Below are positions 26,341-62,814 of a stretch of 64,000 bases of DNA, in pieces. Source of the DNA: Octopus vulgaris (Eukaryota); NCBI GenBank assembly GCA_951406725.2, contig OX597818.1, positions 62,434,001 through 62,498,000 on the forward strand, in the 5' to 3' direction. Under the pieces are notes generated by a model. It had not been told where the DNA came from and made no database searches. It saw only the letters and a list, made by a program, of their open reading frames with translations. The first letter of the stretch is position 1. Each line of letters begins with the position of its first letter. A program made the translations under genes and the position numbers.

Positions 26341-26557
26341 AGCAGCAACAATATCAACGACAACAATAACAACAACTATGTCGACGACAATAAGAAAGTA
26401 TAACAACAAGAACGATAACACGATTATACCAACGACGATAAGAGCAATGTCAACAACAATTACAATAACAAGAATATTAACAGCGTAGACAACAACTACA
26501 AGAAGCCGACAAAATTTACGGCAACAACAACAACAGCAACTAAAAACACTTTCTTTT

Positions 26558-26695
26558 TCAAATTCCGCCGAGGTCGACTTCGCTTTTCATGCTTTCGGGG
26601 TTGATAAATTAAGTACCAGTTACGTACTGGGGTCAATCTAATCGATTGGCCCCCTCGAGAAAAAAGTCGGGCCTTGTGCTTAGAATAGAAAAGGA
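26558..26695 (+). mobile_element. 5'-truncated Nin-domain-like SINE, tail A
   Basis: TTCAAATTCCGCCGAGGTCGACTT ... GGCCTTGTGCTTAGAATAGAAAAG. Confidence 0.8.
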
Positions 26696-26711
26696 GGGAA
26701 AAAAAACAATA

Positions 26712-27295
26712 AACCTTTCTACTCTAGGCACAAGGCCCGAAATTTGGGGGGAGGAGGCGAGTCGATTAGATCAACCCCAGTACGTAACTGGTATTTAACT
26801 TATCTATCCCGAAAGGATGAAAAGCAAAGTCGACCTACCTCAGTGGAATTTGAACTCAGAACATGAAGACAAACGAAATACCTATTTCTTTACTGCCCAC
26901 AAGGGGCTAGACACAAAGGGGACAAGCAAGGACAGACAAACGGATTAAGTCGATTATATGGACCCCAGTGCGTAACTGGTACTTATTTAACCAACTCCGA
27001 AAAGATGAAAGGCAAAGTCGACCTCGGCAGATTTGAACTCAGAACGTAACGGTAGACGAAATACCTATTTCTTTACTACCCAAAAGGGGCTAAACATTGA
27101 GTGGACAAACAAGAACATACAAAGGGATTAAGTCGATACATCGACTCCAGTGCGTAACTGGTACATAAATTATCGACCCCGAAAGGATGAAAGGCAAAGT
27201 CGACCTCCGCGGAATTTGAACTCAGAACGTAGCGGCAGACGAAATACGGCTACATATTTCGCCTGGCGTGCTAACGACTCTGCCAGCTCACCGCT
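26712..27295 (-). mobile_element. Tandem array of three Nin-domain-like SINE bodies (head-body-tailB-body-tailB-body-tailA)
   Basis: Internal junctions read AAAGAAATA|GGTATTTCGT on the minus strand (27056-27065 and 26873-26882). Confidence 0.9.
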
Positions 27296-30430: not shown

Positions 30431-30597
30431 AAATATATAAATAAACAAACACGGAAAAGTAACCAACAAGAAAAAGCGAAAGCTAAAATGTATTTTTAAA
30501 TCACTTAAATTTATTACATAGCGTTTATAGCAATCATCACAATTTCTTTTTTTTATTATCACCGTCACTATCAGCATCTTATCTCCACCACAGTCTT

Positions 30598-30599
<2 letters not shown>

Positions 30600-30649
<50 letters not shown>

Positions 30650-30746
30650 CCATCATCATCATCACCATCATCATCATCACCATCATCATCACCACCACCA
30701 CCACCACCACCACCATCATCATCATGGTCGTCGCCATCATCATCAC

Positions 30747-30797
<51 letters not shown>

Positions 30798-30890
30798 CAT
30801 CACCATCGCCATCACCACCACCACCACCACCACCATCATCATCATCACGGTCGCCGCCATCATCATCACCATCATCATCATCATCATCAC

Positions 30891-30925
<35 letters not shown>

Positions 30926-31090
30926 CCATTGTCATCATTACCATCGTCATCATCATCATCACCATCCTCATCCCCATCATCATCATCACGGTCGTCGCCA
31001 TCATCATAGTCATCGTCGTCGTCGTCGCCATCGTCGTCGTCATCATCATTCCTGTTGTTCTCCATTTCATATTATTATTATTATTATTCG
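30600..31090. repeat. Compound (CAT)/(CAC)/(CGT) trinucleotide microsatellite
   Basis: Directly visible. A similar tract lies at 55083-55240. Confidence 0.95.
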
Positions 31091-31488
31091 TGGAGTCAGT
31101 CGTATTCGTAATGCTATCAATTCCTAGTCGTATCAATAGTATTAGCAGTAGTTTTATTAAACGAATAAAAAAATATATATATTTATGGTTGATATGATAT
31201 AATACATTATGTATATAACGTTTATTTGTATTGCACAGATATTTCTGCTAGGTTACAAAAGGCAGTGAAGAACTGAAGACACCTATTACAGGCAGCTAAA
31301 ACGTCAGTTCCTATAGCAGAATCTAACGCAGAGAGCCGTGTATGTATATTGGAAGCATCCTTGAATTATTTGCGTGGATGCACACGCCTCAGTTAAGCTG
31401 AACTGTCAAAGAATGATATTGTTTGATTTGGGCAAAGCAGAAAATGTTTTCACCATATGTATATTTGTGTGTGTGTGTGTGCATGTGC

Positions 31489-31987: not shown

Positions 31988-32384
31988 TATTTATTGATTT
32001 TTAATTTCCAAAACTTGAGAGTCGCATTATGTTCGAGATCACAACTTGCTCAAGGAAGACAAAGATATAGAAGAGTGATTTTTGACTGTGAAACGAACCT
32101 GCATCTTAACCCATATATACCCCGGGTTGCATTTTCGCAACACAAAACCTGCTTCTACATGTTTGGACATGAACTCACCAGGAAGCATGTGACTGACCAT
32201 ACGAAACGTCCAGTAGGCAGTCGACACCCCTAGCTAAGTCTTTTAAGAATTCATATTTAATGGGCAGATATGAGTTGATTTTTACCACCTTATGTACCCA
32301 CAAGTATAAGACAATCTAAATAAACATTATTTACATTATTTACATTAGTCGGATATTTGTCCTCATCTTGTTTGTTGCTAAAAT

Positions 32385-32716
32385 CGTTAACACGCCGGGC
32401 GAAATGCTTTGTGGTATTTCGTCCGCCGCTGCATTCTGAGCTCAAATTCCGCCGAGGTCGACTTTGCCTTTCATTCTTTCGGGGTCGATTAAATAAGTAC
32501 CAGTTACGCACTGGGATCGATATAATCGACTTAATCCGTTTGTCTGTCTTTGTTTGTCCTCTCTATGTTTAGCCCCTTGTGGGTAGTAAAGAAATAGGTA
32601 TTTCGTCTGTCTTTACGATCGATGTTCAAATTCCACCGAGGCTGACTTTGCGTTTCATCTTTGAGGTCGATAAAATAAGCACCAGTTGAGTACTGGGGTC
32701 GACGTAATCGACTTAA
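32385..32716 (+). mobile_element. Tandem dimer of Nin-domain-like SINE
   Basis: Body-tailB, then GGTATTTCGT (32597-32606) and a second, more degenerate body. Confidence 0.88.
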
Positions 32717-32796: not shown

Positions 32797-33008
32797 GGCG
32801 GCGAGCTGGCTGAAGTGTTAGCACTCCGGACGAAATGCTTAGCGGTATTTCGTTCATTGCTACGTTCCGAGTTCAAATTCCGCCGTGGTCGATTTTGCCT
32901 TTCATCCTTTCGCGGTCGATAAATTAAGTACCATTTGCGTACTGGGATCGATGTAATAGACTGGCCTCCTCCCCCAAAATTTCAGGCCTTGTGCCTAGAA
33001 TAGAAAAG
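32797..33008 (+). mobile_element. Full-length Nin-domain-like SINE, tail A (uninterrupted target form)
   Basis: GGCGGCGAGCTGGC head, CTTAGCGGTATTTCGT intact, GCCTTTCATCCTTTCGCGGTCGATAAATTAAGTACCA domain, GGCCTTGTGCCTAGAATAGAAAAG tail. Confidence 0.88.
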
Positions 33009-33240
33009 AGTAGGTTTATCAAATCAGTTTGATCTGAAGCTCATATTCATTGTATCGTTGTCAAACCCTGATCGATAGAGAGAAAACGCTGACTCGTTCT
33101 TCTTGCAACGGACTGAACATAAGCAATGCGATCTAATCCAAGTCCAATACTGATGTGAACACAATTAATTCCAGTATTTTACCGGTACTAATTTGAAGGA
33201 ACTCAAGTGAATGAAAGACAAAGCTAAAAGCAGGAAGATT

Positions 33241-36230: not shown

Positions 36231-36488
36231 GTATATATGTGTGTGCGTATGTTTGCCTCTCTGTGTTTGTCCCCTCACCATCACTTGACAACCGATGGTG
36301 GTGCGTTTACGCCCCAGTAAATTAGCGGTTCGGCAAAGAGACCGGTAGTATAAGTACTAGGCTTCCTAAGAATAAATTGTGGGGTCGATTTGTTCGACGA
36401 AAGGCGGTGCTCCAGCATAGCCGCATTCAAATGACTGAAACAAATAAAAGAAAGAATAATATATATATACATACATATATGTATGTAT

Positions 36489-40092: not shown

Positions 40093-40703
40093 GTGTGTCT
40101 GTATGTCTGTGTGTGTGTCAGTGTACGTGAGACTGTCTGTCTGTCTATCTGTCTATCCATACATACATATATACATAAATATATAAATATGAACACACAC
40201 ACACATCTATCGTGAACACGTGCATGCACACGCGAACGTAGCGAATCGTAGCTATAGAAACTGCTTCTGGAGAGAAACTGTCCTTATAGACAACGCGTGT
40301 TAGTTTAGACCTCCTTTACTCAAACTAGCACATTTTCATCACAGATTATCCATCCATGACAAACTCCCCTTTTTAAGAATTGCACTGGAATACAATATTT
40401 AATGTAGCATTCGCTTAATTTAAGATAGTAGCGTGTGATTTAAGGAGAGTGGTTGCTATTTCTAGCAGGCTGTACGAAGTTGGTCCAATAGGATTATAGA
40501 TTAGTTATGATAGTATTAGCACAACGAATTTTCCTACAGAATATCTCAGTTGTTCTCTGTATTGAAGTTTATATTATATTTATAGGCAGAGGTGTGCAGT
40601 TGAAAAACTCACCACATGACTAAAAGCTAAGCAGCCTCGTCATATTGTCAAATCTCCAGTCGGATCGACCAGAAATCTTTACTTAACCAACAGCTGGACA
40701 AAC

Positions 40704-40921
40704 GCAGAAACGTTAGCATGACGGGCGAAATGCTTAGCAGTGATTCGTCTGCCGTTACGTTCTGAGTTCGAATTCCGCCGAGGTCAACTTTGTCTTCCAT
40801 CCATTTGGGGTCGATAAATTAAGTACCAGTTAAGCACTGGGGTCGATGTAAGAGACTTAATCCGTTTGTCTGTCCTTGTTTGTCCCCTCTGTGTGTAGCC
40901 CCTTGTGGGCACTAAAGAAAT
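40704..40921 (+). mobile_element. Nin-domain-like SINE with tail B
   Basis: Matches the family. Flanked by AACAGCTG(G/A)ACAAA at about 40689 and 40932. Confidence 0.85.
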
Positions 40922-41221
40922 CAGAAGTAAGAAACAGCTGAACAAAAGAATTTTGGGGCGAAAACTACACCAAATCCTTACAGATACTCACACATTCACA
41001 CGTAGACACTTTCAAACACACGAGCGTGCTCGCACACAGAAACAAACACACCCATGCACACACGCACACATACGCAAACACATATATATGTATACGAAAA
41101 ACATATGAACATACAGATGACTCAAGAGTTCGTCGTGTGAAAGTTGCGATGCGAGATAAATATTATATCAATCAACTATGTGGCGTATATGCAGGGGTGT
41201 ATGTGTGTAGATTTGTATATG

Positions 41222-47371: not shown

Positions 47372-48276
47372 GACACAAACCTATATATCGCAAAAGGCTC
47401 ATAGGTATTGTTGCAACTATTTTTTAGCTACAGTTCAGTCTTAGCCAAGGAGACATATGATTGAAGACGTTGCCTTTGTGACCATCTTGTTTATATTTCT
47501 AGCAGTGTATCTAGTATTCTTTTGTAAGAAGACAACAGTGAGGGAGATTTGGCTTTTATTTCTAGTATGGTGAGCGATCTCATAGCGCCTACCACATTGG
47601 TTCGAGGAACACAATGGCTGATGGGTCACGTGGGATGGATGATGGAAGGGGGCCAAAGCGGGGCGAAAGGTCAAGTGACAACAGGTGGAAGGTTTGAGAT
47701 AAAAGAAAAGATAAGGGATGCTGTCACTTAAAAAAGGACGAGTGAGATGTCACGTGATGGCAGGATCATCATCACCATCATCGTCCCCACGACCACTACT
47801 ATCCTCATTCTACTATTGTCATCATCATCACAACCACTATCATCATCATCATGAACTGGCCGACACTTGACCCTTCTTGCTTAATGATGAGAGAAGAGGA
47901 GAGGAGTCCGAAGAATTAAAACTATTATTATTGTAGCCCTTGTGGCCAATGAACGAATTAATTATTAATGGATTGATAGCATCAGTGAAGTACCGGAAGA
48001 AATGCTCGGCAGTATTTCTTCCGGAGTTTTGTCTTTAGCTCAAATCCCGTCCAAGTTAACTTTTTGCTCTCTTCCTTTCTAGGCTGGCAGAATCGTTAGA
48101 GCATTGGGAAGATGCTTTGCGGCACTTCTTCAAATTCATTCTGCAGCGGTCATCTTTTCGAGATCAATGAATAAAGTACCAGTTATGCACTGGGGATGAT
48201 GTAATCGACTCCCTCACCCCCCACACTGCTGACTTTGTGCCAAGCAGACTCGAACTGATAACATTACAATTTTTAG

Positions 48277-48507
48277 GGCGACGAGCTGGCACAAACGTTA
48301 GCACGCCGGGTGAAATGCGTAGCCGTATTTCGTCTGCCGTTACGTTGTGAGTTCAAATTCAGCCGAGGTCGACTTTGCCTTTCATCCTTTCGGGGTCGAT
48401 AAATTAAGTACCAGTTACGCACTGGGGTCGATGTAATTGACTTAATCCCTTTGTCTGTCCTTGTTTGTCCTCTCTGTGTTTAGCCCCTTGTGGGTAGTAA
48501 AGAAATA
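48277..48507 (+). mobile_element. Full-length Nin-domain-like SINE with tail B, directly upstream of the LINE
   Basis: Family consensus ending AAAGAAATA, followed by GGTATTTCGT (48508-48517). Confidence 0.9.
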
Positions 48508-48692
48508 GGTATTTCGTACGTGTGTTGCTGAAAATATATTGTTGGAGTGTGTTCGTAAGTTTCTGTTAATTGTTATATCTCTTGTTGTGCCTATTGTTGG
48601 ACTTATTGTTGAAAAAAATTGTTGTAGGATAGTTTTCTTTCGAAAGTTATCTGGGGATTCTCCTGTGGGTGAAAATATTAATAGCTGGCAAG

Positions 48693-49510
48693 ATGCCGAA
48701 AAGTTCTTCTTCGTCGTGGGACGAATCATCGATTGAGCGAGAAGCAAAGAAAATAGAAAGCTTAATTTTTTATAACGTTTCTGATGTGTCGGAAAGCGAA
48801 TTTTCGGGATTTACCAAGAGTTACGAACACCAAAAGAAAGACCGAAGAAAGGACCATCCAAAATAAAGAAAAGAAAATTTTGCGTTAGTGGCTGGTGGTG
48901 GAACGCGACAGCTGTCAACTGACATAAAAGAATTATTAAACTATAAAGATATGATAACAGAACGAGATGGAATAGTAAAAGTGGAAATACCCGAAGAAGA
49001 ATTAACAGAGGAAAAAAGAAAATTATTATTTTTAAGACATTCTGCTTAGAAGCTTGTAAAATTGATAAAATATGTGATCAAAAAATTGAAAACCCATCTG
49101 GCAGAACATTACATATCTAGCTAGAGGAAAGAAGTTTGGAACCATCGTGGTGAGGTTCAAGAATGCAGAAACGGCACAAAAACACTCTATAAAATCTTTA
49201 GAGTAGGAAGACACAACGTTAATCTCAATTTATATGGGAATGAGAACATCAAAAGTGAGAATTCCAAGAATTCCGCCCGGAATAAATCCTATGAGCTTGA
49301 TGGCGGCAGTCCTGGCAAAAAGGGAAGATAATATCAACCTCCTGCAAGCTACAGTCACAGAAGATACCTATTGAACTGGTCAAACGCTTGACCTCATACT
49401 GCAGGGTGACCAAAAAAATTTCAGAACAGCTCCCAGAAATCGTGGAAGTAGGGGAAGAAGTTCTAAATATTTTTGTTGAGGGGCGTAGGCCACGATGTTT
49501 CCAGTGTGAC
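48693..49510 (+). pseudogene. LINE ORF1 (gag-like) remnant
   Basis: MPKSSSSSWDESSIEREAKKIE..SDVSESEF, NYKDMITERDGIVKV and a zinc-knuckle start RPRCFQC. Broken by stops and frameshifts. Confidence 0.75.
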
Positions 49511-51657
49511 CCGGGCTGCCGGGCTGCCGTGCCTCTCGGGGTCGGATGCAGAGTCTTGCGAAGGGCCAATCACGCCTGTTGAGGTGATGGAGGCTTTGGC
49601 CGACTGTAAAGCGGGTAAGTCACCAGGACATGATGGTCTTCCGTACGAACTGTATAAGTGTATGCGAGACTTGTTCGGGCAACTACTGGCTGACGTGTAC
49701 GCGAACTGGCAACAGAATGGGTTTATCCCTAGATCTGTGCGCCGGGGAGTAGTGGCGTTGGTCAGAAAAGACCCGGACAAGGGAGATGTTATAGAGAATT
49801 TCAGGCCTATCACTCTGTTAAACACAGAAGTGAAGATTTTGGCCAAGGTCTTAGCAAAAAGGTTGGCATGCGTCGCGAATGGTATAGTCGGGTAGGCACA
49901 AGCATGTACCATCCCAGGCAGAACCATTCAGGATACTCTCCATCTTATTCGCTATTCCATAGAGAGTGTTGGTAATAAATCTGGCAAAGGTGGGGCATTG
50001 GTACATTTTAGACCAGTCTAAAGCTTTTGATTGGGTTGACCATCTATACCTGGCGAGTGTGCTTGCGGGGTTCGGCCTGAGCCTTAGCTTCCTCAGGCGG
50101 TTTATCGCTTTGTACCACAACATTGACTCGATAGTTCGGGTGAACAGTTTCGTTTCGAAGCCGCTCTGCATCAGACGCTCGGTTCGTCAAGGATGTCCGC
50201 TCTCACCACTTTTGTATATAATGGCTCTCGAGCCCCTACTGCGAAGGTTGAGTGACATCCCGAGAGAACCAGGTCTAGAGGAGTTTGTTACGGCTTACGC
50301 GGATGATATCACTATCAGTGTAACCTCGGTAGCACGCCTACGTGAAGTGGGTAAGACTATTGAAGCTTACGAGGAGGTGGAAGGAACAAAGATTAACCGA
50401 CGCATTCAGACTCTACCAGCCTAGGTAAATCTTCGGCACCTAGGTTGGCAAGTCGATGCCTTCAGACAGCGTTTTTGGCGCTGGACGGAGGGACCGGTTA
50501 AGTTGCTGGGAGTTTAGTTTGGACCAGATCTCCAGACAGAGATGAATTGGACGGAGATATTGAGCAGGTGGCTGCAGTAGTCAAGACCTGGTCTTGGCGG
50601 TGTCTATCCCTGAAAGGGAGGGCGGAGGTGGCCAATGTGTTTATCGCATCGGTCATTACTTACCGCCTGACCGTCGTGCCCTGTTCGGATTCGTGGTTGA
50701 TCAGGTATGAGAGACAGCTCTTTCGCATTTTGTGGAAGGGCAGGTCGCGACTTGTGAAACGCTGTGTCTGCTGTCAAAAGCCTTTAAAGGGAGGTTTAGG
50801 GATGCCTTGGTTAATGATGCTCAGACATGCGTTGAGGTTGAGGCACCTCTGGATTCTCCTGGATAGTGGACGAGTGTGGTCTCCGCTGGCCAGACAAATC
50901 TTTCCCGAGTTCAAAACTTTTGCGATCAAGAAGCCTGGTGTTTCTCGCAGACCGAGGTCGAGTGAGTGGCATAAAGAGTGCCGTAAGGCCCTCTTGCTAT
51001 TCCGGCGCTCGGACAACGCCAGCAGTGGGGGTTCCACACGGATTTTATATAGTGGGTTGGTAGAGTCTGAATGCGTCGATGGCCTGGGGGTGACTCTAGG
51101 TCTCGGGTTTATTCAAATGGACAGCCTGTTTCACTGTACATTCGGGTTGAGAACGTTGGACAACTTCTAAAAGTCCTTAACTTGGCAATGCTACAGAGGT
51201 GCCTTGCCCGTTTGGGATAAGCTCCCAAGACATGGTAAGCGTCAGTCGCCGACCTGTCCAAGATGCGGGGGGGGGGCAGGGAAACCGTCCCTCACGCTAT
51301 TGTTCAGTGTCGGAGATAACTTAAATGTGGGCTTATGCTGAACACCTGTTGTCCGGCGAAGGAAGAGTACGGCTGTCGACTGAGTCAATAATAAAAATTG
51401 ACTCACCGGGAGTTTTAACGAGCGATCGTAATAATTGTTTCATCACGGTTGTAGCAATAGCGAAAGATTCAGTATGGAAGACTAGGATAAAAGGAATTAA
51501 GGCAGGCAACTTTATCTTTGGCCACAATTTACGATCATTTTTTTCTTTTCATTTGGAAAGGAAGCTGTGGCTGGAGAAGAGATATCTGTCGGAGTGTACG
51601 TTCCAAAAGAGATGGAAGCATGTAGCACGAGTATTGTGCGTGCAAAGAACCGTGTGA
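49510..51657 (+). pseudogene. LINE ORF2 reverse transcriptase and C-terminal cysteine-rich region, disrupted
   Basis: RT motifs spread over ORFs 49473-49895, 49966-50424, 50547-51170 and 51325-51657. Confidence 0.92.
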
Positions 51658-51905
51658 ATAGACGGAAAAAAAGAAGAAAAAAAGGTACCAGCGGTAGATC
51701 GTGGCTTGTGTGGTCGGAGCGGGACCTGATCATCGCTTCATTTGTATTGTTTTTGTATTGTTAGTTCCATTCCATTTTTTTCTATTGTATTTAAATTTTT
51801 AAAGTCATATTATATGTAAAATCATATCACTTCACTGATCCCATCAGTTGTTCTGTCCATTTCTATGTTTGGCCCCCGGTGGGCAATAAAGAATTGGTAT
51901 TGCGT

Positions 51906-52506
51906 CAGTGTGAGTTGGAAGTGTTGGTATTGTTACCGAAGTGCGTCTGTATAGTATGTGTAGTTTCTGTTGATTGTTTCCGTGTTGTTGCCTGTTTTAA
52001 TTGCTGTTAAAATTTGTATAATAGTTTTTGTTTGAAATCTATTGTGTGTGTTTTCCTCAGTAGGGGAGACACTATTTACTGGCAGGATGCCAAAAATTGT
52101 GTATTTATATGACGAGGATTCGACAGATTTGGAGGCCAGAAAAGTGGAAAAAGTATTGTTGGAAGATGTTACGGATTCGTCTGAGAGCGAATTCCCACCA
52201 CTGTCGAGGACTGACGTTGCAGGGAAGAGCGTCGAAGTGAAAAGACTTCAAACGGAGGAGGGTAAAGAGAAAAGAAGTTTGCGTCTGCAGCTGCAGACAG
52301 AACTCGCCAACTGTCGACGAAGAAAAGTGACGTTTTAATGTACAAAGACATGATAAAAATTCAAGACGGCGTTGTCAAGGTTCAACCCGCAGAAGAGCTT
52401 TTATTGACAGAGAAGAAAAAAACAATTACGTTTAAAACATACTGCCGAAAAGAAAAAATCGAGCGAGTAAGCGAGGAGAAGGTAGAAAAATGTCTAAATA
52501 TGTTCG
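51906..52506 (+). mobile_element. 5' UTR and ORF1 start of a second, diverged Tx1-type LINE in tandem
   Basis: GT-rich UTR. From 52087, MPKIVYLYDEDSTDLEARKVE..TDSSESEF and YKDMIKIQDGVVKV align by eye with the first ORF1. Confidence 0.85.
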
Positions 52507-53061
52507 AGAGGGAGGGGCATGATTTGAAAGCCACCTTCCCCTTAATGGAAAACACGGCAAAATAAAAAAAATGGTTTTAAAAGTCTGAACATTAAAACGG
52601 ATCTTTTCGGATTGAACGGCAGTTTTTTAAAATAATTTCCACGTAATTAAACACTTTAAAACTTCGTATACTGGTAGAATGTGTTTATAAAACATCTTTT
52701 TCTCTTGGCTTTATTGAGAAAATTCTATAGTTTGTAAGATATTTGTTGTTTTTTTTCTTCCATTTCTGCAATTTCAACCAATCAATGACGTCTATTGAGA
52801 TGAAACCATTCTGTGTCGTATAAATATGTCCCTCGTTTAATAAACAGATTGGGTTTATATACATTTGTGAAGAAAAAAAATATCCTTCCTTCCACCCCTA
52901 ACCCTAACTATGATGGGAGCCTCTTAATGTGTTTTAATGTACACGATATTTTATATGAATAATATATAGTCTATTGACTAAATTTTTTTGCGCTAGGCCA
53001 CTGGTAATAAAAAATTTCTATAATTCGTATTACCCTAATATTATTTCTTATATATATATAT

Positions 53062-54987: not shown

Positions 54988-55136
54988 GGTAACAAGTTTG
55001 TATTTATACACATTACTGCTTAGCGCTGACACCCCGTTATTATTATTATTCAGAGAAAATAGATTCATGAGAAAGTGACAAAACCACCACCACCACCATC
55101 ACCATCACCATCACCATCATCCCCACCATCATCATC

Positions 55137-55168
<32 letters not shown>

Positions 55169-56524
55169 CATCACCATCATCATTATCATCACCACCACCA
55201 CCACCACCACCATCACCACCATCATCATCATCATCATCAACAACGATCCATAGGCGCTTTCAGACTAAGTATTCGTAGGATCGAGTAATCGGTTTCGTGC
55301 CGTATGACAATGATCACGGCATAACCACTGATTGGGACCTTGATCCGCCCTCGGCTTATTCTTTTACAGCTGACTGAAATGGATAAACGTGAAATAAAAG
55401 AGTTTATTTGAATGACATAACACATCGCTTCCTCTGGACATTGAAACCATGACCTTGCAATCGTAAACGGAATTTGTACTAGGCCATACGACTTTACACC
55501 GAAAATCCGGTTTGCTGTATGTCATCCTGCTCTTTACGTTCCGAGTTCAAATCCAACTGGGGTCGAATTTATCTTTTATTTATGTGGGTCAAACAAATTA
55601 AAGAACTAATCGAGAACTAGGGCGAATGGTATTGTATGGCATTCTTTCCTCGAAACATCGCATTTTGCCTAAATTAGAAGTTATTATTCCGACACTAATC
55701 TCCATCTAATTGATGTAAATAGATACATCTGTGTGACAAAATCACGACAATCTACAATAGCTTGCTGTCAAGTTATGTCTGACGTGGTGGCCATTAATAT
55801 CTCTCCTTGTAGGAAACCCAAGTTTATGGTGTTTTAATCTTCTCTTTGTTCGGCTATGCTTAAATGGTACTAAATAATATCAACGTTGGCAAATTTTCTT
55901 TCGCATTCTCCTTGTACTACTACATCAATGTAAAATGAACAGATGAATTTAGCGTGGGAGAATAAATTGTAATAACATTTCATAACAAAAGCATTGAAAT
56001 TATCAACTTGAGTTAGAATAGTTCAGCGTCTCTCCATTGTTGAAGCGAAGCCTAAGGCTATGTTTTTGAATTAATAACTCTTGCATATATATCTAAAATT
56101 TTTTTTGACGTGTGTACTTTTCGGTTTTATATTTACATCTATGTTTTTCATTTATTTAAATGATTGCAATACAAGTATGATCGCAAAAATGATGAAATTC
56201 TGTGATAAATTTAGAATATGCGTTTTGTATTCTGTATTTATGCTGCTTTTCTCAAAGGGACAAAAACTGCCTGCCGGCGATAGAATCCGTTCAAGTTGAC
56301 AGGAAGGTTTACGAGTACTTTTCGATTAGCTCAGCATTAAATTTAATATAATATATAGTAATGTAGTTAGGAAATTAAAAATAAATAGAGAAGAATATTG
56401 TCGCGCTGGGTGTATTATAGAAATTTAATGTGAATACATCTGATATGCAATTAAGGCAATCTTTATCATTGTTGCCATAGAAAATATGCATCAGCGTCTA
56501 TCTATATATATGTACTCATACACA

Positions 56525-57183: not shown

Positions 57184-57995
57184 TACAGATTACGGCAGAA
57201 AGGTCACCCCGATTTCAAAGGTTAATAAAATACAAACACATAAAATGCCTGAAAAGACTTTGAATTTCTATGAAGTACATTAAATGCTATTTTTGATTCT
57301 GTTTCAAGTGTTAGTCAATATGGCCTGGAGTGGAGATCATTGTCCATTTATTGTTGAAGAGTTTGTTAAGATCGGTGAATCAGTCGTAACGACGCAACAT
57401 TCCTTCCGAAGACCCTTTGCGCTTCGTCGTCATAATCCCGTACCGGATGGAAAATCAATTCGTCGGTGAGTTTCCAACTGTAAACAAACATCATCGGCTT
57501 TAAACAGGAAAAGTCCTGGTTGTCCTAGGACCGTTACAGGGCCAGAAAATGTCGTAGCTGTAGCAGCATCTATACAACAATCTCCCAGACGTTTCGCACG
57601 AAACCACGATTCTGCCTTACACATGTCCAATCGAAGTGTCCGCAGAATCTTGCATATGTTTCTTCACACGCATCCCTACAAGATAATGATTGTACAGTAT
57701 GTAAGCGAGAGGGATCACGAAACCCGCCCAGATTTGTGTCGAGACGTTCTCCAGACCATCCTCCCAACAGCTGTTCTGGTCTGCAGTGATGGAGCGCACA
57801 TCCATTTATCGGGGATGGTCAATAAACAAAACTTTCGTTACTGGTCAGACAATAACCATCGTGAACTCCACGAACGGCCACACGACAGTGCGAAGGTTAC
57901 CGTCTGGTGTGCCATGGGTGATTTTGGCGTGTGGGGTCCTTATATTTTCAGAGAAAAAGGTGTTACAGTAACTCTTACATCGGACCCCTATTGTG
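57184..57995 (+). mobile_element. Tc1/mariner (rosa/DD41D-like) transposase pseudogene, 3'-truncated
   Basis: ATG at 57320, in-frame stop at 57467, GCPRTV, HPYKIMIVQ, CSDGAHIHLSGMVNKQNFRYW and KVTVWCAM..GVWGPYIF. Ends at a SINE 3' fragment. Confidence 0.9.
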
Positions 57996-58143
57996 ATACT
58001 GCTTCAAAGGTTTCGCCGTCCAAAAGTCGTCCTGGGATCGATTTGTTCAACTTAGGGCGGTGCTCCAGCATGGCCGCAATCAAATGGCTGAAACAAATAA
58101 AAAATATATATACACATATATTGATACATATATACATATATTG

Positions 58144-61449: not shown

Positions 61450-62520
61450 TAGTTTTTGCTAAATTTTGTTGAAGAACCGTATCTCGTTCGTAGGGGAGAG
61501 GTCACAGGAACGAGAATGGGCCCCAGTTATGCTTACCCGTTTGTTGGCTACGTTGAGGCCCAAATATTTTCACAATTCACTGGTCACCCTCCCGAATTAT
61601 ACGGTCATTATATCGATGACTGTATCGGCGCAACCTCACCCTCTGTCCTCTCCTTTGTCTAATACTTCCATCCTGCTCTCCAATTCTCCTCAACCATCTC
61701 AAACTCTTCCGTCGAATTTCTCGACATTTCTGTCTGCATGGACCACTCTGCTCTCACTACCTCAATCCACTCCTATCTTAACTTCTTCCTCTTCCCAACC
61801 TGCCTACATCAAACTCTCCATCCCCTATTCCCAAATTCTTCCTCTATGCAGGCTCTGCAATGACGATCATGGCTTTGAGACTCAGTCTCCGCTCATAGCT
61901 CGTCGCTTCATCCTACCTTGATATCCCCTCACCATTATCCACACTGCCCTTGTCCGGGCACGATCTGTGGACCCCATACTTCTGCTCTTTCTCATCGCAC
62001 TCGTCCCACCCTTACCCTTCTCCCGTTTCTCTTCACCTCCCACCCCTCCTACGCACCATTCTTCGAGCCTTCTGGCGACTTCAATCCGACCCCTCCACCG
62101 CGCATATCTTCCCTAACTCCCCTTCAAACGAACCTACCTGACCTAGTCCACAGCTTCTTCCCTACCTTAACCTCCTAACCTGGCACCCATCACAGTCCCT
62201 ATCACGTCACCTAATCGTTTAGCTGCACCTCTAGTAATGCTATTTACTACATTTTCTGCTCTCTCACTCTCTATCTCTGTATTTCCCTGTATATTGGTCA
62301 ATAGAGAAACCGCTTGGCTGACCAGTTCGCGGCGCAACTCCGAGACATTAGACTCGCCAATGACACCCCGGTCACGTGCCACTTCCGCGCTACCGGTCAT
62401 TTGCTACAACATCATTCTGTATTCGGACTGTCTCTGCACAGGGGTCACCCGGTCTCCCGCCTCCGACGTGAATAAGAATTAATCTTCTCTCTTCGTTTCT
62501 TTGCGCCATATAGGCTCAAC
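61450..62520 (+). mobile_element. Degraded Penelope-like element (RT + GIY-YIG)
   Basis: GTRMGPSYAYPFVGYVE, YGHYIDDC, EFLDISV, SIPYSQILPLCRLC, then CTSSNAIYY ... LYIGQ ... RLAD in the endonuclease region. Confidence 0.88.
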
Positions 62521-62814
62521 TCACCTCCTGTCTCCATCTGACACCAGCCACACCCTGATTCCCACATATTTCCCTTATTCATCAGCCCCATCTCCACCAA
62601 CACACCTTCAACAGCCCAGCTTGGTACCCTCAACACGCACCACTATACACACATCCATACACACTGTTCAAATCATCACTCACTTCACACTCTATTACAC
62701 ACACACGCATCAGACTCACTCGCTCCCATTCACACATATACACGCACACTCTCTCACACACCATTCTCTCTCACATAAATATACACGCATACAAACAAAT
62801 ATATATACATATAT

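What the first reader, a model, noticed from the sequence alone, without database searches (positions are those of the whole stretch)
51840..51895. LINE 3' end matches tail B of the Nin-domain-like SINE
Seen: the LINE ends TTGTTCTGTCCATTTCTATGTTTGGCCCCCGGTGGGCAATAAAGAATT and tail-B SINEs end TTGTTTGTCCTCTCTGTGTTTAGCCCCTTGTGGGTAGTAAAGAAATA. Both contain a small GCCC..GGGY hairpin before AATAAA/AGTAAA. Established: SINEs borrow the 3' end of their partner LINE; partners are usually L2, CR1 or RTE and rarely Tx1/L1. Inference: tail B was captured from a Tx1 relative, so this is a stringent-type Tx1-driven SINE, while tail-A copies use another partner.
Basis: partly seen in the sequence, partly recalled or inferred. 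Interest (0 to 1): 0.8.

Follow-up and report, generated by a model that had tools for sequence, protein, structure and literature searches.

The report
Self-targeting SINE with Tx1-like partner
In what is likely an octopus genome, a short parasitic repeat and a long retrotransposon end in the same 46-base tail, which is often followed by 10 bases from the short repeat's own head, so the long element likely copies the short one and would aim both into other copies of that repeat.

Summary
The tail match is real: the last 46 nt of the LINE (51848-51895) match all 7 tail-B SINE copies in the window at 73-80%, and 0 of 2000 shuffles reached any score. The LINE sits between two copies of GGTATT(T/G)CGT, a 10-mer from the SINE's own head; a second, related LINE starts after the right copy; 4 of 7 tail-B ends run into the exact 10-mer, and 2 more lie in look-alike sites with about 10-bp duplications. 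Contigs from 3 of 4 public runs show the tail B to 10-mer to SINE-body junction. Best reading (0.65): a site-specific L1/Tx1-group LINE targets the SINE head, and tail B lets the SINE borrow that machinery and home into its own family, building head-(body-tail B)n arrays. Not shown: that other LINE copies carry the tail (one suggestive joint only), Tx1 membership by phylogeny, hairpin covariation (none found), and tail A's partner. Closest known: crocodilian SINEU/Tx1-Mar (shared target, no shared tail). I found no report of this pair in 8 literature searches; Repbase and Dfam could not be checked.

The parts
51848..51895 (+). 3' end of LINE1, homologous to SINE tail B; holds the GCCC-N5-GGGC hairpin; looser likeness may reach back to about 51833
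48518..51895 (+). LINE1: decayed L1/Tx1-group element with 5' UTR, ORF1 from 48693, ORF2 remnant 49518-51657 (RT, zf-RVT), 3' UTR of about 240 nt
49507..49521 (+). internal deletion joint of LINE1: ORF1 breaks in the zinc knuckle (P0207 residue 276) and ORF2 resumes at residue about 417 of a full-length relative; the endonuclease is missing from this copy
48508..48517 (+). 10-mer GGTATTTCGT between tail B and the LINE1 5' end (left target-site copy)
51896..51905 (+). 10-mer GGTATTGCGT (9 of 10) between the LINE1 3' end and LINE2 (right target-site copy)
51906..52560 (+). LINE2: 5' UTR and start of ORF1 (ATG 52087) of a related family (66-69% nt to LINE1; 40-57% aa to P0207); the rest is missing from the window; end approximate
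48278..48507 (+). tail-B SINE heading the array; its own copy of the 10-mer (one mismatch) at 48324-48333; tail B 48443-48507
26716..27294 (-). array head-(body-tail B)-(body-tail B)-body-tail A; exact 10-mer at both joints (27065, 26882); the two B units are 85% alike
32381..32710 (+). array head-(body-tail B)-body; exact 10-mer at 32597
24678..24906 (+). tail-B SINE inserted in the head of a different tRNA-like SINE; 10-bp duplication 24668-24677 / 24907-24916 (9 of 10), site GCCTAGT^GGTTAGAGCA
12881..13097 (+). tail-B SINE inserted into the opposite strand of another body-type SINE; about 10-bp duplication 12845-12854 / 13098-13107 (9 of 10), GGTATTCATT after the tail
40704..40922 (+). tail-B SINE at an unrelated site: 14-bp duplication 40689-40702 / 40933-40946 (13 of 14), no 10-mer; the exception
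32798..33010 (+). tail-A SINE with an unoccupied target (GCTTAGC^GGTATTTCGT at 32844); control: not followed by the 10-mer

Best explanation
The LINE and the tail-B SINE share a 46-base 3' end and a 10-base flanking motif from the SINE's head, which likely means that a site-specific Tx1-like LINE cuts inside that head and would insert both itself and the tail-B SINE there. Steps: (1) seen: same 3' end, same register before GGTATT; LINE1 lies between two copies of the 10-mer and LINE2 starts after the second. (2) inferred: ORF2p binds the tail, its AP-type endonuclease nicks at GCTTAGC^GGTATTTCGT and again 10 nt on, and target-primed reverse transcription leaves a 10-bp duplication. (3) inferred: because the tail-B RNA itself carries the head and the target, its cDNA anneals to the host head at the 5' side, so the joint is seamless and arrays read head-(body-tail B)n-body-tail. 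(4) inferred: each insertion leaves the intact site at the 5' end of the array, so the order here would be LINE2, LINE1, SINE-B. (5) inferred: tail B arose once, by template switch from a LINE of this lineage onto the SINE body. Specificity is loose: look-alike sites (GC..A..^GGT) are used too, and one copy sits at an unrelated site.
For: Tail match beyond chance in 7 of 7 copies, 0 of 2000 shuffles. Exact 10-mer after 4 of 7 tail-B ends, 9 of 10 after the LINE end, and after 0 of 3 clear tail-A ends; 8 exact copies in the window against 0.14 expected, 4 in heads and 4 after tail B. Two LINE families both start right after the 10-mer with ATG at +185 and +191. Two more tail-B copies show about 10-bp duplications at look-alike sites in other SINEs. 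Neighbouring array units are 85% alike, no closer than scattered copies (81-94%), so they are not recent local duplications. Public runs: joint 48508 to 48325 with 9 shared letters in 13, 11, 8 and 0 contigs of X1, X2, X7, X15; loose ends behind 48517 read as SINE body in 407, 825 and 316 contigs (X1, X2, X7); a joint from the LINE end (51893) to the head target (48324), with ATT between, at depth 3400 in X2 where long contigs run at 42-92. Relatives have AP endonuclease + RT + zf-RVT, ORF1 with a CCHC knuckle and RRM-like look-alikes, and L1 ORF2p as nearest solved structure (1e-72 against 6e-29 for R2). Many Tx1 families are target-specific, some for other transposons (PMC4494074).
Against: No listed contig bridges the LINE 3' UTR (covered to 51811 by record 32) and the tail, and the left length of the 51893 joint is not given, so it could be a SINE-tail variant; it is listed for one run only. 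X15 shows 0 contigs for the 48508 joint and no 48517 loose end among its six shown; 804 joints and 3595 loose ends were not shown and counts were incomplete. 3 of 7 tail-B copies lack the exact 10-mer, 1 of them with no likeness at all. No array keeps a host head plus duplication in front of a full-length B head, so step 3 is needed to explain the 5' side. No covariation in the hairpin. This LINE copy has lost its endonuclease. The LINE tail is only 73-80% like tail B, so the true donor may be a sister family. Only one LINE 3' end is held.
Confidence: 0.65

Rival explanations
1. The SINE-LINE tail partnership is real, but the arrays do not come from endonuclease targeting: they are composite (dimer or read-through) SINE transcripts moved as one piece, end-to-end template jumps, or unequal recombination between SINE bodies.
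For: All three arrays begin with a single head and show no 5' duplication. Neither tail holds an obvious stop before the next body in the copies read. Tandem SINE arrays by recombination between duplications are proposed in bivalves (PMC11481361).
Against: It does not explain two different LINE families each starting after the same 10-mer, nor 10-bp duplications at look-alike sites in unrelated hosts. Tail B is followed by B-type bodies in some joints and A-type in others, which is not one fixed dimer; array units are no more alike than scattered copies.
Confidence: 0.15
2. The match is local or reversed: 51848-51895 is an old 5'-truncated tail-B insertion abutting this LINE copy, or the LINE lineage took its end from the SINE; the true partner is another LINE.
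For: Only one LINE 3' end is in hand; no listed contig links 3' UTR and tail. LINE-to-SINE identity is modest.
Against: No 10-mer, poly(A) or SINE body lies between the 3' UTR and the tail. The LINE tail is further from tail-B copies (mean 76%) than they are from each other (mean 88%) and has its own indels. A LINE-type end joined to the head target is present at depth 3400 in X2. The element ends in the same register before the 10-mer as tail B.
Confidence: 0.12
3. The mechanism is as in the best reading, but the LINE is not in the Tx1 clade proper (another invertebrate L1-group lineage), so 'Tx1-driven' is a misnomer.
For: No named Tx1 protein appeared among 30 clusters looked up; the tree holds no named reference; the window's own frameshifted RT piece does not separate L1 from R2.
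Against: CCHC-type ORF1, zf-RVT, no poly(A) tail and a fixed target fit Tx1 better than vertebrate-type L1 (features recalled, not from a call); O. vulgaris has 80 L1-Tx1 families by automatic class (PMC13282606 supplement).
Confidence: 0.07
4. The likeness is a chance match of T-rich, low-complexity ends.
For: The match is short (46 nt) and gapped; the hairpin is not more stable than shuffles.
Against: 0 of 2000 shuffles for 7 of 7 copies; the match lies at the exact end of both elements and is followed by the same 10-mer.
Confidence: 0.01

Closest known systems
SINEU / Tx1-Mar of crocodilians (PMC4494074; passages and parts 3-4 of 5 read)
   Same: A SINE and Tx1 LINEs share a target inside another repeat; tandem insertions are common; specificity ranges from 13% to 90% of copies.
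   Different: The target is a Mariner transposon, not the SINE itself; no LINE sharing the SINEU-1 3' end was found; heads are U1/U2-derived, not tRNA-like.
Target-specific Tx1 families Tx1L, Keno, Mutsu, Dewa, Kibi, Koshi (as listed in PMC4494074 and PMC3706591)
   Same: AP-endonuclease LINEs that insert at a fixed site of a multicopy sequence.
   Different: Listed targets are U2, U5, 5S, the tRNA-Leu spacer, satellites, microsatellites, DNA transposons and LTR elements; a SINE head is not among the targets in the passages read.
Nin-DC / Deu SINEs and their LINE partners (PMC3747384 Table 1; PMC11481361 section 13; PMC4824008 passages)
   Same: tRNA-like head, conserved body, exchangeable LINE-derived tails of 35-61 bp at 72-95% identity.
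   Different: Reported partners are L2, CR1, CR1-Zenon, Crack, RSg-1 and Nimb; Table 1 lists no Tx1 partner; no target specificity is mentioned in what I read.
ZmSINE2/3 with LINE1-1_ZM and SINEX-3_CR with L1-1_CR (PMC3747384)
   Same: SINEs sharing a 3' end with an L1-clade LINE; a hairpin in the shared tail.
   Different: Plants and a green alga; compensatory changes were seen there and not here; no fixed target reported.
R2 and its non-autonomous derivatives (PMC3414825, search listing only; co-transcription with the target discussed in PMC4494074)
   Same: Site-specific short elements riding a site-specific LINE; target sequence in the RNA can help integration.
   Different: Restriction-like endonuclease, rDNA target, elements derived by internal deletion of the LINE rather than pol III SINEs.

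Membership tests
L1/Tx1 group of non-LTR retrotransposons | ORF2 with AP endonuclease, RT and C-terminal zinc-binding domain | tested here: met
   RT met in the window; zf-RVT weak in the window (E 0.007) and above cut-off in relatives; endonuclease present in relative P0007 but deleted in this copy
L1/Tx1 group of non-LTR retrotransposons | ORF2 closer to L1 than to R2-type proteins | tested here: met
   P0007: L1 ORF2p 1e-72, R2 6e-29; the window's 153-aa frameshifted piece alone does not discriminate; no CR1, L2 or RTE protein appeared among the hits to compare with
Tx1 clade | RT phylogeny groups with Tx1L/Keno and not with L1 | tested here: inconclusive
   Tree of 42 rows puts LINE1 with Argonauta P0006, P0002, P0003 (100/98) but holds no named Tx1 or L1; 30 cluster look-ups gave no Tx1 name
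Tx1 clade | ORF1 with RRM-like part and CCHC knuckle (feature recalled) | tested here: met
   O. vulgaris relative P0207 (83% identical) has C-X2-C-X4-H-X4-C; atlas look-alikes are zf-CCHC and ZCCHC3-type clusters, score 0.90-0.92; Pfam itself found no family
Tx1 clade | insertion at a fixed site of a multicopy target with a duplication (many, not all, members) | tested here: inconclusive
   LINE1 between two 10-mers, LINE2 after the second, one supporting joint; only 2 LINE ends of 5' type and 1 of 3' type are held
SINE with LINE-derived tail (stringent type) | homology confined to the 3' ends of both elements | tested here: met
SINE with LINE-derived tail (stringent type) | conserved stem-loop with compensatory changes | tested here: inconclusive
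   88.5% of cells paired against 44-56% when slid, but 0 compensatory pairs in 8 close sequences
SINE with LINE-derived tail (stringent type) | tail required for mobilisation by that LINE | not testable with these tools
   needs a retrotransposition assay
SINE with LINE-derived tail (stringent type) | tail present in other copies of the LINE; overlapping ages | tested here: inconclusive
   one joint in one run; no assembly held
Nin-DC / Deu SINE | body matches the Nin/Deu consensus | not testable with these tools
tRNA-derived SINE | tRNA-like head | tested here: inconclusive
   ARAGORN default 0, Rfam 0 tRNA matches; relaxed ARAGORN calls a tRNA-Arg-like fold in the tail-A head tested and none in the tail-B head tested

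The most novel reading that the evidence does not exclude
A closed parasite loop: an octopod Tx1 lineage uses the head of one of the genome's most abundant SINEs as its safe landing site, and that SINE captured the LINE's tail, so it now manufactures and invades its own target, growing ordered head-(body-tail)n arrays mixed with LINEs. It would be a first animal SINE with both a Tx1-derived tail and self-targeting, and the cut motif (GC..AGY^GGT) would be a mimic of the tRNA A-box/D-loop, pointing to tRNA genes as the older target.
Probability: 0.45. Interest if true: 0.8.

Novelty: new variant of a known kind. Interest (0 to 1): 0.66.

Why it matters
SINEs are about 12% of the O. vulgaris genome and 893 of 900 recently active SINE families are unclassified (PMC13282606); a named partner and a homing rule would explain part of that mass and suggest that many 'families' are array permutations. 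It would add a SINE head to the targets of Tx1-type LINEs and give an animal test case for stringent 3'-end recognition in the L1/Tx1 group, so far argued from plants and algae. Ordered arrays give relative ages of SINE and LINE subfamilies without a clock. An AP-endonuclease LINE with a short required tail and a defined 10-bp duplication is also a tractable system for studying how target choice evolves.

Tried and rejected
No whole genome is held, so the assembly-wide test could not be run. Scans for related loci found no relative in metagenome, viral or prokaryote genome contigs; a tail pattern gave 0, 1 and 1 hits, and both hits are bacterial chance matches; plasmids: no match. No RNA holder was listed, which says nothing on expression; 4 of 24 listed runs were laid. 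Rfam found nothing at gathering level and only 3 weak unrelated matches near two SINE loci. The hairpin round the target (11-12 bp stem in 3 heads folded) is not more stable than shuffles (z -0.65), so I do not claim structure-based targeting. A weak tail-B hit at 36238-36275 belongs to a different repeat and was dropped before counting 7 copies. Recent local tandem duplication was rejected. Depth figures from contigs were not used as copy numbers, except as a rough ratio for one joint. Four look-ups of earlier findings returned nothing. No fold or complex job was sent: it would not bear on the claim.

Full report
Observation. The two quoted strings are in the window: the LINE end at 51848-51895 and tail B at 48461-48507. 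The window holds 7 tail-B copies (an eighth, partial hit at 36238-36275 belongs to another repeat and was dropped). The LINE's last 60 nt score 33-48 against each, while 2000 dinucleotide shuffles average about 14 and never reach the observed score; the best of 163 windows inside the LINE scores 20; three tail-A copies score 12-16. Identity over the shared stretch is 73-80% to the LINE and 79-98% among the SINE copies. The GCCC-N5-GGGY hairpin is possible in 8 of 8 sequences, and a 12-pair extended stem is 88.5% paired against 44-56% when slid, but no pair shows a compensatory change and the folds are no more stable than shuffles.

The LINE. LINE1 runs 48518-51895. ORF1 starts at 48693 and its best-kept part is 83% identical to an Octopus vulgaris protein, P0207, which carries a CCHC knuckle; atlas look-alikes are CCHC and ZCCHC3-type clusters. 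ORF2 relatives are 46-55% identical over the piece searched and include Argonauta proteins; full-length kin have AP endonuclease, RT and zf-RVT and L1 ORF2p as the nearest solved structure. An internal deletion at about 49507-49521 removes the end of ORF1 and some 416 residues of ORF2, with the endonuclease. A tree of 42 rows groups LINE1 with the Argonauta protein and two unnamed ones (100/98) but holds no named Tx1. So the host is likely an octopod and the element is of the L1/Tx1 group; 'Tx1' rests on recalled features (CCHC ORF1, zf-RVT, no poly(A)) and on the target evidence below.

The SINE head holds the sequence GCTTAGC^GGTATTTCGT. The 10-mer after the caret occurs exactly 8 times in the window against 0.14 expected: 4 times in heads and 4 times directly after tail B (48508, 32597, 27065, 26882). 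LINE1 is flanked by it on the left (48508-48517) and, with one mismatch, on the right (51896-51905); after the right copy begins LINE2, the 5' part of a related family (66-69% nt), and both LINEs have their ATG at nearly the same distance from the 10-mer (+185, +191). The locus thus reads SINE-B, 10-mer, LINE1, 10-mer, LINE2. Elsewhere the window shows head-(body-tail B)2-body-tail A (27294-26716) and head-body-tail B-body (32381-32710). Of the other 3 tail-B copies, one lies in the head of a different tRNA-like SINE at GCCTAGT^GGTTAGAGCA with a 10-bp duplication, one in the opposite strand of a body at a GGTATT-like site with about 10 bp duplicated, and one at an unrelated site with a 14-bp duplication. 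None of 3 clear tail-A ends is followed by the 10-mer. Neighbouring array units are 85% alike, within the 81-94% of all pairs.

Outside evidence. No assembly is held and the collection scans gave nothing usable. I laid 4 of the 24 listed runs (four organism labels) on 48240-52600 at 85% likeness. The joint from the end of tail B back to the head target (48508 to 48325, 9 letters fitting both sides) is in 13, 11, 8 and 0 contigs of X1, X2, X7 and X15. Loose ends behind 48517 read as SINE body in 407, 825 and 316 contigs of X1, X2 and X7 (agreement 0.70-0.75); X15 does not show this among its six listed rows. One joint links the LINE end (51893) to the head target (48324) with ATT between, at depth 3400 in X2, where long contigs run at 42-92; the window's LINE also ends in ATT while tail B ends in ATA. 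Limits: its left length is not given, so a SINE variant is possible; no listed piece bridges the 3' UTR (covered to 51811) and the tail; 804 joints and 3595 loose ends were not shown and counts were incomplete.

Mechanism (0.65). Seen: shared 3' end, shared register before GGTATT, 10-bp duplications. Inferred from target-primed reverse transcription in AP-endonuclease LINEs (established knowledge): ORF2p binds the tail, nicks at the caret and 10 nt further on, and inserts LINE or tail-B RNA. No array keeps a host head and a duplication in front of a full B head; I infer that the B cDNA, which carries the head, anneals to the host head, akin to the help from co-transcribed target noted for R2 (PMC4494074). 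The intact site then lies at the 5' end of the array, giving the order LINE2, LINE1, SINE-B. Tail B likely arose by one template switch; looser likeness reaches back to the body-tail joint. Rivals: composite transcripts or recombination (0.15), a local SINE fragment or reversed capture (0.12), a non-Tx1 member of the group (0.07), chance (0.01).

Comparison. It works like crocodilian SINEU/Tx1-Mar, where SINE and Tx1 share a target in a Mariner element but no shared 3' end was found. Table 1 of PMC3747384 lists no Tx1 partner; L1-clade partners there are in maize and Chlamydomonas. Bivalve SINE partners are CR1, CR1-Zenon, L2 and Nimb, with 35-61 bp at 72-95%. Octopus papers give only class counts: L1-Tx1 80 families, tRNA-Deu 17. 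What I saw of each paper: PMC4494074 passages and parts 3-4 of 5; PMC13282606 part 1 of 3 and a search of its one supplement; PMC3747384 passages and part 1 of 2 of the tables section; PMC11481361 passages and section 13; passages only of PMC4758252, PMC8967140, PMC4824008, PMC5786205, PMC4640811, PMC8869645, PMC3706591; PMC3414825 as a listing. Eight searches showed no report of a Tx1-tailed or self-targeting octopus SINE. Repbase Reports, Dfam, the authors' repeat library and subscription papers (Ohshima and Okada 1994; Kojima and Fujiwara 2004; Piskurek and Jackson 2011) were not seen and may bear on novelty. The Nin label and the A-box likeness of the cut motif are recalled, not from a call.

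Verdict. Observation confirmed; interpretation partly supported and extended. New variant of a known kind: interest 0.66; 0.8 if the full self-targeting loop holds (probability 0.45).

Noticed in passing
P0207 (relative of window 48693-49507): The O. vulgaris protein named 'EPM2A-interacting 1-like' by its source is the ORF1 of this LINE family, so the name looks like a misannotation.
   Followed up: partly
window 48293 (joint 48507 to 48293): A second recurring joint puts tail B before a point near the start of the head, in all four runs (3, 6, 1, 6 contigs) and the only such joint listed for X15; it may be a second site or a species difference.
   Followed up: no
window 26557-26761: Two tail-A SINE ends lie tail to tail and form a near-perfect inverted repeat of about 75 nt.
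   Followed up: no
window 24700-24745, 32820-32865, 48300-48345: The target sits at the loop edge of an 11-12 bp stem in the SINE head; not significant against shuffles.
   Followed up: partly
window 57302-58021: Remnant that reads like a Tc1/mariner transposase (weak DUF4817 helix-turn-helix, E 0.004), cut by a SINE at about 58020; the family label is recalled.
   Followed up: partly
window 61450-62530: Decayed frame that reads like a Penelope-type RT with a GIY-YIG-like end; Pfam found no family; label recalled.
   Followed up: partly
window 52560-52990: LINE2 stops at about 52560 and is joined to an unrelated AT-rich repeat; no ORF2 of this family follows in the window.
   Followed up: partly
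P0004 / P0123: A close ORF2 relative sits on a 1775-bp contig filed under a Herbaspirillum MAG, probably host DNA in a bacterial bin.
   Followed up: no
P0309 and P0119 clusters: Distant ORF2 relatives (about 28-30%) come in groups on the same contigs or with neighbouring locus tags in a fish genome, as arrays of site-specific elements would.
   Followed up: no
window 30487-31247 and 55080-55245: Long (CAT/CAC)n microsatellites give spurious open frames.
   Followed up: no
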